DNA of 64,000 bases from Raja brachyura (taxonomy: Eukaryota), in the NCBI GenBank assembly GCA_963514005.1, contig OY740789.1, positions 49,476,001 to 49,540,000 on the forward strand, in the 5' to 3' direction. Shown in pieces: positions 3,001-64,000 of this stretch (positions within the stretch are counted from its first letter, which is position 1; each line of letters opens with the position of its first letter). The position numbers were made by a program.

Positions 3001-6000
3001 ACGCACAACCCCATCCATATCAACGGGACGGAGGTGGAACGTGTCTCCAACTTCAGGTTCCTGGGGGTCAACATCTCTGATGACCTCTCCTAGACCCCCA
3101 ACACATCCTCGCTGATCAAGAAGGCTCACCAGCGTCTCTTCTTCCTGAGGAGACTTAAGAAGGTCCACCTGTCTCCCCATATTCTGGTGAACTTCTACCA
3201 CTGCACCATTGAGAGCATCCTTACCAACTGCATCACAGTATGGTATGGTAACTGCTCTGTCGCCGACCGGAAAGCTCTGCAGAGGGTGTTGAAGATCGCC
3301 CAACGCATCACAGGCTCCTCACTCCCCTCCATTGAGTCTGTCCATAGTAAACGATGCCTGCGCAGGGCGCACAGCATCGCCAGGGACAGCTCACACCCCA
3401 ACCATAGACTGTTTACCCTCCTCCCATCTGGGAGACGCTACAGGTCCCTCTGCTGCCATAAAAGCAGGCTCAAGAACAGCTTCTTCCCTGCGGCTGTCAC
3501 ACTTCTCAACGCTACACCTCAATGACTGCCTGTCTCCACCCCTCCCCCCCCCCCCCCCCCCCTCGGGACTATCCAATCACCAGCAAATTGCACGGATACC
3601 ACTGTATATGTATAGATGTTCATACTCATACTACTGCGCAATTACTTGTTTATTCGTAAGTTCGCCCTTCGGAGATACCAACTGCATTTCATTGTCTCTG
3701 TATTGTACACTGCACAATGACAATTAAAGATTGAATTTAATTTAATTGAATATGCTGGTCGGCAGGGGCACGGTGGGATAAAATAACTATTTCTGCATTG
3801 TATCTCTAAACCAAACTAAACCAGTGGGAAGATGAACTGCAGATACTGGTTTGCACTGAAAATGCTGATATAACTCAGCAGGACAGACTGCATCTCTGGA
3901 TAGAAGGAATGGTGATGTTTCGGGTCGAGTACAAAGAAGGGTCTCGATCCGAAACATCACCTATTCTTTCTATCCAGAGATGCTGCCTGTCCCACTGAAT
4001 TACTCCAGCAGTTTGTGTCTATCTTCGGTCTAAACCTGCGGTGATCAGATGAGGACAGGGAACTCTGTCAGGGATGTAATGTTGAGGCTTTAGAAGGCAC
4101 TGATCAGACCGCATTTGGAATACTGTGAGCAGTTTTGGGCCCCCTATCTGAGGAAGGATAGGCTAGTGGAGGTTTACGACAAAAACGTATGAGAAGCGTT
4201 TGATGGCACTGGGCCTGTACTCACTGGTTTAGAAGGATGAGTGGGTACCTCTATTGAGTTGATGTGGAGAGGGTGTTTCCAGTAGATGGAGAGTCTAGAA
4301 ACAAAGGGCACATCATCCGAATAAAAGGACATACCTTTAGGAAGAAGAGGAGGCATTTCTTTAGCCAGTGGGTGGTGAATCTGTGGAATGTATTGCCACA
4401 GACAACTGTGAAGGCAATGTCATTGGGTATTTTTAATGCAAGATTGGCAGGTTCTTGATTAGGAAGGGTATCAAAGGTTATGGGTAGAAAACAGGAGAAT
4501 GGGGTTGAGAGGAAAAAATAGATCAGCCATGATTGAGTGGTGGAGCAGACTCGACAGACCACATGGCCTAATTCTGTTCCTATGACGTATAGTCTTATGA
4601 CCTCCCTTGTAGGTAAAGCAGTTCTGGGATCTTCAGGAATACATTAGACAGTGACAATTGACTGGAACTATGTCCTGGCCTGACCCATTGGCTTCAGGCA
4701 AGAGAGGAAACATTTGGTAAATAAACACTAACAACAATTCTTTCCCCAGCTTCCTTTTCCGCCAAAGGCACAGTCAGTAAAAAAGCCTATCAATCCAATC
4801 GTGAACAGAGGAATCAAAATACAAAATATTCCTTGGGCTAATTTTATTTGCTAAGGACAGGAGTGGTGGTATTAATATTTCATCTCTCCATGTTTCGAGT
4901 TTAAAGCTTTAGAGATACAGTGTGGAAACAGGCCCTTCGGCCCACTTAGTCTGCACTGACCAGCGATCACTAGCACCATTCTACGCACTCGGGACAATTT
5001 ACAATTTACTGAAGCCAATTAACGTACAAACACGTATGTCTTTGGAATGTGTGAGGAAACCGGATCACTCGGAAAAAAACCCAGGGAGAATGTGCAAACT
5101 CCATTCTGACAGCACCCGTGGACAGGATGAAACTGGGGTCTCTGGCTGTAAGGCAGCAACTCTGCCGCTGTGCCACTGTGCTGCCCATGTTCTCCGGGGA
5201 TGCTGCCTGACCTGCTGAGTTATTCTAGCACTTCATCTCTTTCATTAGTAAATCATGTTGCAGATATTGAAGGACACATAATACTTCGGATTACAATGTA
5301 GATCTCTGATTTTATTTTAATGCAATGTATATAAACTCAAAAGGAGGTATAAACTCCCAGCAGAGATTTGGAATCAAATGTTGTCTAGGGCTGAAATTTA
5401 AAACAGGAGCTAAACAACACTGGGTTGAAAAGGTAGCTTTTTCACCCAGGAGTATGTTTTCCATTAGCTAATAGCAATAAACACAATGCTACCGCACCTG
5501 GAGCAGAGAAGAAGGAACATGAATAAAACATGTCATATACTGTAGAATCAGGAAGCAGTTAAAAACAATAACACACGGGCCTCCTGATTTGAAGAGGCAG
5601 TGGAGCTGAGAAAAAATGGTGAGATAAATAAGCTTCTATTGCGACAAAGAGCAAGCTGAAAGAGTGCGATGTGAAAAATTCTATGATAATAGTTAAGTCA
5701 ATAGAAAAGGATGAATGATGATAAATGGCCTCCATTGTGTAACAATTTATAACTGAATGGAATTTGTTGAAAATGAATATTTATATTGTATCCCACAACC
5801 TGTGTGGGAGGAAACCGGAGCACCCGGAGCAAATTCAGGTGGTCTCAGGGAGAACATACAAACTCCATACAGACAGCACCCTTAGTTGGGATTGAACCCG
5901 GGTCTCTGGCACTGTAAGGCAGCAACTCTACTGCTGTGCCACTGTGCCACCCCTATATCCCTCCAATTTCTCATGTGAACCCCTTCACTTGCTTCACATT

Positions 6001-63000: not shown

Positions 63001-64000
63001 GCTGTCACTAAGATGGCTCTGATGTTCACAAGGAATTGCCTCACAGTTCTAGTTACGTTCAGAATTCCCCATAAAATAATACTGGACAAATGCAAGAGCA
63101 AGGAGCTTCAGATGCTGGTTTACAAAAGAAGACACAAAGTGCTGGAGTAACTCAATGGGTCAGGCAGAATCTCTGGAGAACATGGATAGGTGAAGTTTGT
63201 GGTCGAGTTCTTGTGTCTGAAGAAGGGTTTCGACCCGAAACGTCACCTATGTATGTTCTCCAGAGATGCTGCCTGATTCATTGAGTTACCCCAGTACTTT
63301 GGGTCTTCTTTAATATTGGACAAAGTCTGTTTTAAGTTGATCATGCATTTACCCGTGTGTTTGTGCAATATCTCACATTATGATATTTTAAAACATCTGA
63401 ATTTGAATGTCTTTTCTGAAAATTCAAATTATTTCCCACCAGAAAAGAATTAAAACAAATATTTTGGATACTTCATGGGGCGGCACAGCGGTGGAGTTGC
63501 TGTCATACAGCGCCAGAGACCCGGGTTCAATCGTGACTACAGGTGCTGTCTGTACAGAGTTTGTACATTCTCCCTGTGACCATGTGGGTTTTCTCCGTGT
63601 GCTCCGGTTTCCTCCCACATTCCAAAGATGTACACGTTTGTAAGTTAATTGGCTTCTGGAATTTGTAAATTGTCCCGAGTGTATAGGATTGTGCTAGTGT
63701 ACAGAGTAATCGCTGGTTGGCGGGTTGTGGGGCAAATGTTTTTACACAGAGAGTGGTGGAGGCCTGGAACACATTGCATGGGGTGGTGCTAGAGGCAGAT
63801 ATAATATGGAGTCAGAGGCTTTTAGATAGACACGTGGAAGTGCAGGGAATAGAGGGATGTTGATCATGTGCAGGCAGACAAGATCAATTTAATTAGGCAT
63901 TGTGTTTACTCTGGGCTGAAGGGCCCGTTCCTGTGCTGTATTGTTCAACTACAGTTCTACTGTTCTAAACAATCATGACTCTTGGCTCTTCACCACCCTC

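What the first reader, a model, noticed from the sequence alone, without database searches (positions are those of the whole stretch)
3828..63324. Fold-back mini-Penelope units that moved on their own, with 9-16 bp TSDs
Seen: short non-coding units (~130-250 bp excluding nested inserts) made only of the Penelope terminal segment. Many are two inverted arms meeting at the hammerhead: 3828-4040, 17937-18120, 27863-28305, 33414-33596, 47800-47980, 57130-57410, 63091-63310. Several units have discrete TSDs: 16 bp (11758/12053), 16 bp (27847/28306), 12 bp (31133/31281), 11 bp (33403/33597), 9 bp (60765/60899), 14 bp (63077/63311). Known: Penelope insertions often carry an inverted 5' copy of the terminal repeat and variable TSDs. 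Inference: this may be a non-autonomous, ribozyme-bearing, retrozyme-like family mobilised in trans that mimics MITEs and would yield long hairpin RNA. This is the best candidate for an under-described system in the window.
[Added by the scan's program, not by the reader: the finding's places include an assembly gap (unread letters, written N; its length is only estimated) at 29384 to 29587. Whether the letters on both sides are continuous or in frame is not known: test that first.]
Basis: partly seen in the sequence, partly recalled or inferred. Interest (0 to 1): 0.72.

Follow-up and report, generated by a model that had tools for sequence, protein, structure and literature searches.

The report
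Short Penelope-type fold-back retroelement relics
The window is littered with old, short, non-coding copies of the hammerhead-bearing end piece of a Penelope-type retrotransposon, many of them as inverted pairs with target-site duplications; this is the textbook insertion signature of such elements in its smallest form, not a new kind of mobile element.

Summary
A ~135-nt 'arm' (minimal hammerhead-like motif at its 5' edge) occurs 51 times (nhmmer E<1e-3; 7.4% of the window). All 7 listed fold-backs are real head-to-head arm pairs (7 observed, 1.6 expected; 0 of 2000 random placements reach 7). All 6 listed target-site duplications (TSDs) are real, and a paralogous empty site confirms one.

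Arm 3' ends fall into two classes about 35 nt apart. Fold-backs usually pair one long with one short arm. TSDs vary from 7 to 16 bp and junctions are palindromic. This is the published Penelope-like-element (PLE) insertion architecture: inverted pLTR, optional 30-40-nt 'tail', trans-capture of foreign sequence.

Every fold-back has its own junction, so fold-backs were made anew at each integration and are not copies of a fold-back master. They are not retrozymes (no tandem arrays, no canonical hammerhead) and not MITEs.

Unit 11774-12052 is not pure Penelope: it joins a reverse-complemented CR1-like 3' end to an arm.

No PLE ORF lies in the window, so the Penelope assignment rests on architecture and motif.

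Residual interest: unit 5' ends cluster at the hammerhead, and one junction is centred exactly on the predicted cleavage site.

The parts
3824..4039 (.). Fold-back 1: inverted arm (consensus 22-137, has an 11-nt internal deletion) plus direct arm (13-118). No clear TSD. A possible 8/9 repeat at 3816-3824 / 4030-4038 overlaps arm consensus and is ambiguous.
17906..18115 (.). Fold-back 2: inverted arm (15-133) plus direct arm starting at consensus 38/39, the base after the predicted ribozyme cut. Both arms are long-ended. No TSD found.
27863..28305 (-). Fold-back 3: long-ended inverted arm plus short-ended direct arm, with a 16-bp TSD (15/16) at 27847/28306. A tRNA-derived SINE is nested at 27916-28167. 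The centre (28213-28252) holds three alternating copies of a 12-mer, and the perfect 22-nt palindrome 28231-28252 is centred on the predicted hammerhead cut.
33414..33596 (+). Fold-back 4: a short inverted piece (consensus 70-107, short end) plus a full direct arm with long end. It has an 11-bp TSD (11/11) and is inserted into the upstream region of an older copy. The paralog 19163-19385 carries the 11-mer once.
47802..47980 (-). Fold-back 5: inverted arm (25-132) plus direct arm (18-92). The junction lies inside the helix-II palindrome. Only a marginal 7-bp repeat flanks it.
57124..57404 (+). Fold-back 6: short-ended inverted arm (6-104), an extra direct fragment (59-98), then a long-ended direct arm (18-132). 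No TSD found.
63091..63310 (-). Fold-back 7: long-ended inverted arm (13-135) plus short-ended direct arm (8-104), with a 14-bp TSD (13/14) at 63077/63311. The hammerhead core is intact in the direct arm.
31145..31280 (-). Solo arm, 136 bp, long end, 12-bp TSD (12/12).
60774..60898 (+). Solo arm, 125 bp. It starts at the CTGAAGA box, has the long end and a 9-bp TSD (9/9).
50491..50589 (+). Solo arm, 99 bp, short end, 13-bp TSD (12/13) at 50478/50590.
9623..9761 (-). Solo arm, 139 bp, long end, with a marginal 7-bp repeat (7/7) at 9616/9762.
11774..12052 (+). Hybrid unit: a reverse-complemented CR1-like 3' terminus (~165 nt, ending in a CATAGAAA-type repeat at the outer edge) joined to a short-ended A-type arm. 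It is flanked by a perfect 16-bp TSD.
18509..18841 (+). Second hybrid: the same CR1-like terminus (~200 nt, different breakpoint) joined to a long-ended B-type arm. The CR1-like sequence does not continue beyond the arm. No TSD found.
61375..61771 (-). Partial tandem: two units (~63 nt of upstream region plus arm), the first long-ended and the second short-ended, separated by a 38-nt spacer. This is the only pLTR-like tandem in the window.
45239..45472 (+). Longer copy: ~98 nt of upstream (pyrimidine-rich) region plus a full arm with intact hammerhead core. A possible 8-bp TSD is within the chance range.
19163..19397 (+). Longer B-type copy with at least 150 nt of upstream region and a short end. 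It serves as the paralogous empty site for fold-back 4.
29384..29587 (.). Assembly gap (N). No arm lies within 1 kb of it; only a SINE copy abuts it.

Best explanation
These are old, dead insertions of the 3'-terminal module of Penelope-like retrotransposons (PLEs). The module is a ~135-nt RNA segment running from a minimal hammerhead motif to the sites where the PLE reverse transcriptase starts.

Shown:
- The module ends at one of two positions about 35 nt apart.
- Insertions carry TSDs of variable length.
- Head-to-head inverted pairs are far commoner than chance.
- Each pair has its own junction.

Inferred mechanism: a PLE reverse transcriptase/GIY-YIG endonuclease made a staggered break and primed cDNA synthesis at one of the two internal start sites of the module RNA. 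The cDNA ran only as far as the hammerhead region. A second copy was then made in the opposite direction, and the two were joined in the middle. That second copy came either by self-priming or template jumping at the cDNA end, or by priming from the other nicked strand. The outer ends are therefore reverse-transcription start sites (tail on one side, none on the other), and the inner junction lies in or next to the hammerhead.

The fold-back is a by-product of each integration and not a replicating unit. In two cases the second copy is a CR1-like RNA end instead of an arm.
For: (1) Abundance and age: 51 arms at E<1e-3 cover 4742 bp, with mean identity to the profile consensus of 84%.

(2) Motif: the consensus carries CUGANGA, one extra base, a helix II closed by G10.1-C11.1, GAAA, and the palindromic C-G followed by U-H. 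These are the features listed for PLE min-hammerheads in PMC4209133 (text read). The core is intact in 5 of the 22 arms that cover it; the rest differ mostly at CpG sites. The six proposed pairs form in 85.6% of cells, against 9-52% when partners are slid.

(3) Two 3' ends: 16 arms end at consensus 97-110, 25 at 127-141 and 10 elsewhere. Five short and six long ends abut a TSD copy directly. This matches the optional 30-40-nt PLE 'tail' and the two reverse-transcription start sites shown in vitro (PMC8557442 passages; PMC11167929 main text).

(4) In 5 of 7 fold-backs one arm is long-ended and the other short-ended, including all 3 with a clear TSD. This is the published 'tail at one end only'.

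(5) Head-to-head pairs: 7 observed, 1.6 expected, 0 of 2000 simulations reach 7.

(6) Junction coordinates differ in all 7 fold-backs. Palindromes sit at the junctions, as described for rotifer PLEs (PMC3846280 passages).

(7) TSDs of 7, 9, 11, 12, 13, 14, 16 and 16 bp; five of the eight are more than 60% A+T.

(8) Paralogous empty site for 33414-33596.

(9) Fold-back arms occur in both major subfamilies.
Against: No PLE reverse transcriptase or GIY-YIG ORF lies in the window. Pfam scans of all 246 stop-to-stop ORFs of 70 aa or more found only CR1/jockey-like and Gypsy-like reverse transcriptases. The link to Penelope therefore rests on architecture and a motif, not on homology to a full element.

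No Rfam hammerhead model matches. There is no covariation support for the helices: 76 of 500 shuffles reach the observed score. Helix I has only 2 conserved pairs. A single arm does not fold better than shuffles (z = -0.3).

Four of 7 fold-backs lack a convincing TSD. One fold-back has two long ends. The exact-match TSD screen had background: 4 of 112 shifted controls gave 12 bp or more, probably from other repeats.

The strong clustering of unit 5' ends at the hammerhead is not predicted by plain random 5' truncation.
Confidence: 0.62

Rival explanations
1. A true non-autonomous lineage. Short ORF-less RNAs consisting of just the module (hammerhead to reverse-transcription start, ~125-140 nt) were transcribed from earlier copies and mobilised in trans by PLE enzymes, like a SINE. 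Fold-backs, solos and hybrids are all products of that short template reaching its 5' end.
For: Of 20 unit-internal 5' ends (4 TSD-delimited solos, 14 fold-back arm starts, 2 hybrids), 16 lie at consensus 1-25, 3 at 38-39 and 1 at 70 (my reading). That is, nearly all lie at the hammerhead edge.

Template-switch signatures (palindromes, a foreign CR1-like end) sit just there, as expected at a template's 5' end.

None of the ~35 insertion loci reaches a PLE coding sequence.

The B-type subfamily is nearly all short units: 0 'extended' copies among its 17 tree rows, against 9 of 19 in the A/C group. Two B-type extended copies were dropped from the tree for low coverage.

In vitro, a PLE needs only a comparable ~150-nt RNA stretch for insertion (PMC11167929 main text). 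pLTRs alone mobilise foreign sequence in trans in rotifers (PMC3846280 passages).
Against: At least 11 copies continue upstream of the hammerhead, into at least three different pyrimidine-rich regions. Seven fragments start inside the arm. The lengths therefore form a continuum around the peak.

Reverse-transcriptase stalling at a protein-bound or structured hammerhead would give the same peak.

A 64-kb sample cannot show lineage-specific diagnostic substitutions. No promoter was identified.
Confidence: 0.3
2. The arm is not Penelope-derived at all. It is the 3' tail of a LINE (CR1/L2-type) or of a LINE-dependent SINE, and the hammerhead-like motif is fortuitous.
For: The only non-LTR reverse transcriptases in the window are CR1/jockey-like. 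One of them (1964-3727) ends about 100 bp before fold-back 1. Two arms are fused to a CR1-like terminus. No hammerhead model in Rfam matches.
Against: The arm has no poly(A) or microsatellite 3' end, whereas the CR1-like family here does. The two 3' ends ~35 nt apart, the one-sided tail and the head-to-head pairs are PLE hallmarks and not CR1 ones (PMC8557442, PMC3846280). The motif carries every min-hammerhead feature, including the extra base after A9 and the palindromic 15.2-16.2 (PMC4209133). In the hybrids the CR1-like end is in the opposite orientation to the arm.
Confidence: 0.05
3. The fold-backs are MITEs: cut-and-paste DNA elements with ~100-bp terminal inverted repeats, moved by a transposase.
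For: They are small, non-coding, hairpin-forming units with flanking direct repeats.
Against: TSD length varies from 7 to 16 bp. Outer ends fall at two alternative positions, and the two ends of one unit usually differ. Every unit has a different centre. Single arms with their own TSDs exist.
Confidence: 0.03

Closest known systems
Penelope-like element insertions with an inverted 5' pLTR and optional 'tail' (Arkhipova et al. 2013, PMC3846280; Craig et al. 2021, PMC8557442; Frangieh et al. 2024, PMC11167929)
   Same: Head-to-head inverted terminal repeats with palindromes at the junction. An extension of ~31-40 nt on one outer end only. TSDs of 8-10 bp and variable length. Heavy 5' truncation. 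A hammerhead in the terminal repeat. Unrelated sequence captured next to the repeat. Two internal reverse-transcription start sites.
   Different: Here nothing lies between the repeats: the whole insertion is 100-280 bp. No ORF-bearing copy lies in the 64 kb. TSDs reach 16 bp. The inner ends cluster tightly at the hammerhead.
Genome-wide min-hammerhead singletons and opposite-strand pairs in metazoans (Cervera & De la Pena 2014, PMC4209133)
   Same: A minimal type-I hammerhead without helix III, with an extra base after A9, a G10.1-C11.1 pair and a palindromic 15.2-16.2. Mostly single motifs, with some pairs 100-700 bp apart on opposite strands. Many sequence families per genome.
   Different: That paper did not dissect insertion boundaries, TSDs or junctions, and it covers no skate or shark in the text I read.
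Animal non-LTR retrozymes (Cervera & de la Pena 2020, PMC7229834; Li, Clavereau & Pollet 2026 preprint, 10.64898/2026.07.22.740005)
   Same: Non-coding, hammerhead-bearing elements related to PLE terminal repeats, presumed to be mobilised by PLE enzymes. Dispersed monomers exist.
   Different: Retrozymes are defined by head-to-tail tandem units with (mostly canonical) type-I hammerheads that excise and circularise. Here there are no tandem arrays, only one partial tandem, a minimal motif, and inverted instead of direct pairing.
L1 twin priming (5' inversions of LINE-1 insertions; recalled, no paper read here)
   Same: An inverted segment is created during a single target-primed integration by priming from the second nicked strand.
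   Different: In twin priming the inverted part copies a more 5' region of the RNA. Here both arms copy the same 3' module, so the product is a palindrome.
MITEs
   Same: Short, non-coding, hairpin-forming units with flanking direct repeats.
   Different: These units have variable TSD length, unequal ends, unique centres and solo arms, so they are retro-insertions and not transposase substrates.

Membership tests
Penelope-like element (terminal repeat / 3' module) | Physical link to an ORF with a telomerase-like RT and a GIY-YIG endonuclease | tested here: inconclusive
   No GIY-YIG hit, and only CR1-like or Gypsy-like reverse transcriptases, among 246 ORFs of 70 aa or more. A 64-kb window cannot exclude full elements elsewhere, and no eukaryotic genome collection was open to search.
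Penelope-like element (terminal repeat / 3' module) | Minimal type-I hammerhead motif in the terminal repeat | tested here: met
   The consensus has all core boxes and the published min-hammerhead hallmarks. The core is intact in 5 of 22 arms. Pairs form in 85.6% of cells but without covariation support. No Rfam model matches. Activity was not tested.
Penelope-like element (terminal repeat / 3' module) | Optional 30-40-nt 'tail': two alternative 3' ends, often differing between the two ends of one insertion | tested here: met
   16 short ends, 25 long ends and 10 others among 51 arms. Five of 7 fold-backs pair a long with a short end. Eleven ends are validated by an abutting TSD.
Penelope-like element (terminal repeat / 3' module) | Inverted 5' copy, head-to-head, with a palindromic junction | tested here: met
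   7 observed against 1.6 expected. Junction palindromes are seen.
Penelope-like element (terminal repeat / 3' module) | TSDs of variable length | tested here: met
   Lengths of 7-16 bp in 8 units. One is backed by a paralogous empty site.
Penelope-like element (terminal repeat / 3' module) | Partial head-to-tail tandems (pLTR) | tested here: inconclusive
   One case only, with a 38-nt spacer.
Animal non-LTR retrozyme | Head-to-tail tandem repeats of the hammerhead-bearing unit (dimers to multimers) | tested here: not met
   Tandem Repeats Finder found no array over any arm. Direct neighbours number 5 against 3.3 expected.
Animal non-LTR retrozyme | Hammerheads that excise a unit-length RNA which circularises | not testable with these tools
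   No RNA data are available. The motif lacks helix III and would need a dimer.
MITE | Terminal inverted repeats with a fixed, superfamily-specific TSD length and conserved termini | tested here: not met
   TSDs are 7-16 bp, outer ends are unequal and centres are unique.
SINE (pol III head plus LINE tail) | A tRNA-, 5S- or 7SL-derived promoter head | tested here: not met
   ARAGORN finds no tRNA-like gene in the window. The arm shows no such head in the alignment. I did not scan the arm for internal promoter boxes.

The most novel reading that the evidence does not exclude
The ~135-nt module is a self-sufficient mobile unit whose template 5' end is set by the ribozyme region. Three observations point this way. 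In fold-back 27863-28305 the centre is a perfect palindrome centred exactly on the predicted cleavage site, with the first 12 nt after the cut present three times in alternating orientation. A second fold-back arm (18021 onward) also starts at that base. Most other unit 5' ends sit just before the catalytic box.

If a genome-wide count showed sharp peaks of 5' ends at these two positions, these relics would be the first genomic footprints that PLE hammerheads cleave in vivo and that cleaved, or ribozyme-delimited, mini-RNAs are reverse-transcribed and jump templates. They would include jumps onto CR1-like RNAs. In vitro work saw no such reads (PMC11167929 main text).
Probability: 0.15. Interest if true: 0.55.

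Novelty: new member of a known kind. Interest (0 to 1): 0.27.

Why it matters
As it stands this is repeat annotation. It shows that a large share of this (skate-like) genome region, 7.4%, is Penelope-type terminal debris, and that hairpin-forming pairs arise as a routine by-product of integration. That matters in practice: such units can be mistaken for MITEs or miRNA-like hairpins. The fold-back at 63091-63310 scores against miRNA precursor models in Rfam.

The mechanistic value lies in the junctions. They record where reverse transcription stopped and jumped, so a genome-wide census could test whether the PLE hammerhead defines or cleaves the template in vivo. That question is still open for this element class.

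Tried and rejected
- Rfam: no hammerhead family at gathering score over the whole window, nor at E<=10 over 42700-43050 and 63050-63350. The fold-back only hit hairpin-shaped miRNA and other models by shape.

- PLE ORF in the window: none found. The reverse-transcriptase fragment at 34676-35113, near fold-back 4, is CR1/jockey-like with an Exo_endo_phos partner domain in its relatives.

- My first reading of 11774-12052 and 18509-18841 was one replicating 'head plus arm' composite family. I rejected it: the head breakpoints differ, the arms belong to different subfamilies, and the heads are ~88% identical while the whole units are only 79% identical.

- I then considered that the arm at 18713 had simply inserted into a CR1-like copy. 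I rejected that too: the CR1-like sequence does not resume after the arm (scores below the shuffle maximum).

- Arms as tails of the abundant ~290-bp SINE: rejected. That SINE is tRNA-derived, unrelated, and merely adjacent or nested.

- Covariation in the hammerhead helices: none beyond shuffles.

- The exact-match TSD screen with shifted controls was noisy because flanks contain other repeats. A boundary-restricted, mismatch-tolerant screen was cleaner.

- The tree of arms has only 63 columns and 24 of its 33 inner branches are unresolved. It supports only the two-group statement.

Orthologous empty sites, genome-wide copies and full-length PLEs therefore stayed unchecked. Supplementary files of the papers were not opened. 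The species and consensus lists in the supplements of PMC4209133 and of the 2026 preprint may already include this family.
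Full report
**What is there**

The window has one N run, 29384-29587. It is very rich in repeats. A blastn search with the right arm of the first listed unit found 44 copies on both strands. I built a profile from 14 good copies (141 positions). nhmmer with that profile found 56 matches at E<1, of which 51 have E<1e-3. These 51 cover 4742 bp, 7.4% of the window, with a mean identity of 84% to the profile consensus.

The repeat, here called the arm, begins with a hammerhead-like block:
- CUGAAGA;
- one extra A;
- a 4-bp helix II closed by G-C around a tetraloop;
- GAAA;
- C-G;
- U-C.

It then runs about 100 nt further. At least three subfamilies exist, differing mainly just after the motif and near the 3' end.

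**Check of the observation**

All seven listed fold-backs are head-to-head pairs of arms. Head-to-head neighbours with a gap of 80 bp or less number 7. Random placement gives a mean of 1.6 and a maximum of 5, and none of 2000 placements reaches 7. Tail-to-tail pairs (2) and direct neighbours (5) are near expectation.

All six listed TSDs are present at the stated places and abut the unit ends: 16/16, 15/16, 12/12, 11/11, 9/9 and 13/14. In a boundary-restricted search that tolerates mismatches, none of 126 displaced controls reached score 10. The three fold-back TSDs score 11-13. The other four fold-backs have nothing convincing. That search added a 12/13 TSD around a 99-bp solo arm (50491-50589) and a marginal 7/7 around 9623-9761.

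For 33414-33596 there is a paralogous empty site. The unit sits in the upstream region of an older copy. The uninterrupted paralog 19163-19385 aligns to the left flank up to 19286 and to the right flank from 19276, so the 11-mer occurs once there (scores 82 and 76, shuffle maxima 68 and 41).

The assembly gap touches no unit. Only a SINE copy is cut by it.

**Anatomy that decides the interpretation**

A stacked alignment of all arms in consensus coordinates shows three things.

First, 3' ends fall into two classes. Sixteen arms end at consensus 97-110, 25 end at 127-141, and 10 end elsewhere. Five short and six long ends are directly followed by a TSD copy, so both are true insertion ends.

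Second, in 5 of 7 fold-backs one arm is long-ended and the other short-ended. This includes all three with clear TSDs.

Third, the inner ends nearly always lie in the hammerhead block, but at a different place in every unit. Inverted-arm start and direct-arm start are:

| Fold-back | Inverted-arm start | Direct-arm start |
|---|---|---|
| 1 | 22 | 13 |
| 2 | 15 | 38/39 |
| 3 | 38 | 38 |
| 4 | 70 | about 5-11 |
| 5 | 25 | 18 |
| 6 | 6 | 18, with an extra fragment between |
| 7 | 13 | 8 |

Fold-back 5 is centred in the helix-II palindrome. Fold-back 3 is centred on a perfect 22-nt palindrome whose axis is the predicted cleavage site, and the 12 nt after the cut are present three times in alternating orientation.

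**Comparison with print**

These are the published hallmarks of Penelope-like elements.

- Arkhipova et al. 2013 (PMC3846280, passages read) describe an inverted pLTR overlapping the direct one, palindromes at the inverted junction, and a 31-bp tail optionally present on one of the inverted pLTRs. They also describe 8-10-bp TSDs, solo pLTRs, and unrelated sequence carried between pLTRs 'in trans'.
- Craig et al. 2021 (PMC8557442, passages read) give the same scheme, with a 30-40-bp tail often at one end only.
- Frangieh et al. 2024 (PMC11167929, main text read) show in vitro that a PLE protein nicks and extends both DNA strands. It starts reverse transcription at two internal RNA sites that bracket the tail, and it needs only a short RNA stretch next to the hammerhead. 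It also prefers AT-rich targets.
- Cervera and De la Pena 2014 (PMC4209133, text read) define the minimal hammerhead. It has an extra base after A9, a G10.1-C11.1 pair and a palindromic 15.2-16.2. They note thousands of single motifs per genome and pairs on opposite strands 100-700 bp apart.

The arm consensus has each of these motif features. The core is intact in only 5 of the 22 arms that cover it; the others differ mostly at CpG sites.

**Limits of the Penelope assignment**

No PLE ORF lies in the window. Of 246 ORFs of 70 aa or more, the only reverse transcriptases are two CR1/jockey-like fragments (1964-3727, followed by an ALKBH8_N-type domain, and 34676-35113) and a Gypsy-like element. 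The best named relative of the second CR1 fragment is from the skate Leucoraja erinacea. I therefore take the window to be from a skate-like fish.

No Rfam hammerhead model matches at gathering score or at E<=10 in two test regions. The proposed pairs form in 85.6% of cells, against 9-52% for slid partners. However, the structure was read from the consensus, and covariation is no better than shuffles (76 of 500). One arm alone folds no better than shuffles (z = -0.3), as expected for a motif said to act as a dimer. So 'hammerhead' and 'Penelope' are well-founded inferences, not demonstrations.

**Mechanism**

Shown: discrete insertions, two end classes, an excess of head-to-head pairs, and unique junctions.

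Inferred: target-primed reverse transcription starts at either of two internal sites of the module RNA. The cDNA reaches only the hammerhead region. A second, oppositely oriented copy is then made and joined, either by self-priming or template jumping, or by priming from the second nicked strand. Because every junction differs, the fold-back is made anew each time; it is not the replicating unit.

The tree of arms used 36 of the 51 arms; 15 were dropped for having fewer than 50 of the 63 columns. It resolves only two groups (SH-aLRT 94 each). Fold-back arms occur in both (9 and 3 rows), beside solos and longer copies. As RNA, a fold-back would indeed be a long hairpin (-131 kcal/mol, z = -15.5).

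Unit 5' ends cluster at the hammerhead. By my reading, of 20 unit-internal 5' ends, 16 lie at consensus 1-25, 3 at 38-39 and 1 at 70. At least 11 copies continue upstream into at least three different pyrimidine-rich regions, and 7 fragments start inside the arm.

The B-type subfamily is almost entirely short units: 0 'extended' copies among its 17 tree rows, against 9 of 19 in the other group. Two B-type extended copies were among the dropped rows. A short, ORF-less template RNA mobilised in trans would explain this. Stalling of the enzyme at a structured or protein-bound hammerhead would explain it too. The window cannot decide between them.

Membership in the retrozyme class fails. There are no tandem arrays over arms and only one partial tandem with a spacer (61375-61771). 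The motif is minimal, not canonical. Membership in MITEs fails on TSD length, unequal ends and unique centres.

**A correction with some interest**

Unit 11774-12052 (perfect 16-bp TSD) and the similar 18509-18841 each consist of two parts. One is the first ~165-200 nt of a ~360-bp repeat whose outer end is a short CATAGAAA-type repeat. The other is an arm. From memory, that repeat is the reverse complement of a CR1-type 3' microsatellite. Each unit therefore has two retroelement 3' ends facing outward, like a fold-back in which one arm is replaced by a CR1-like end.

The two are independent events:
- the breakpoints in the CR1-like part differ;
- the arms belong to different subfamilies and end classes;
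- the CR1-like sequence does not resume after the arm.

This fits the 'capture of unrelated sequence' known for PLEs. A hexamer repeated just inside and just outside the 11774 unit is unexplained.

**Verdict**

What they describe is the ordinary insertion architecture of Penelope-like elements in its smallest form, in a genome where it may not have been described. That makes it a new member of a known kind, of modest interest.

The one lead worth a genome-wide follow-up is the position of the inner junctions relative to the ribozyme, above all the palindrome centred on the predicted cut.

I could not search any eukaryotic genome collection or open paper supplements. Full-length elements, orthologous empty sites and prior naming of this family therefore stay unchecked.

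Noticed in passing
window 4908-5187, 6216-6525, 10070-10365, 11045-11319, 27916-28167, 28444-28726, 29187-29383, 30674-30964, 35951-36235, 36567-36849, 51671-51943, 59579-59865, 63482-63699 and others: A ~290-bp tRNA-derived SINE family with more than a dozen copies. The tRNA-like head (with a GGTTCGATCC-type B box) shows when the copy is read in reverse. ARAGORN calls none of them a tRNA. One copy is nested in fold-back 3 and one is cut by the N gap. From memory it resembles the elasmobranch HE1-type SINEs.
   Followed up: partly
window 15482-15823, 25055-25422, 26960-27297 (-), 55911-56270 (-): A ~360-bp repeat family whose one end carries a variable number of CATAGAAA-type octamers. From memory this is the reverse complement of a CR1-type 3' microsatellite. 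Its first ~165-200 nt are fused head-to-head to arms in units 11774-12052 and 18509-18841.
   Followed up: partly
window 1964-3727 (+) and 34676-35113 (+): Two decayed CR1/jockey-like LINE fragments. The first has RVT_1 followed by an ALKBH8_N-type domain. Relatives of the second carry Exo_endo_phos domains, and its best named hit is from Leucoraja erinacea (67% identity).
   Followed up: partly
window 19801-23895 (-): A Gypsy-like LTR retroelement relic. RVT_1, RNase H, integrase zinc-binding and core domains and DUF7041 lie in broken frames on the minus strand. It is flanked by direct repeats 19801-20034 and 23647-23895 (84% identical). The region is GC-rich (0.54-0.59).
   Followed up: no
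window 38841-39761: A GC-rich stretch (about 0.51 over 38001-40000) with long open frames on both strands (up to 260 aa, no Pfam hit) and a 56-bp tandem repeat at 39204-39309. It lies between two arms and could be a CpG island or an exon.
   Followed up: no
window 11952-11957 and 12069-12074: The hexamer TTAAGA occurs just left of the arm inside unit 11774-12052 and again just right of the unit's 3' TSD copy. It suggests a more complex target rearrangement than a simple 16-bp duplication.
   Followed up: no
window 63139-63297: Fold-back 7 scores 42 bits (E = 1.2e-07 in a 301-nt search, far below the gathering score of 100) against a plant miRNA precursor model in Rfam, purely because it is a long hairpin. 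This is a warning for automatic hairpin or miRNA annotation in this genome.
   Followed up: yes
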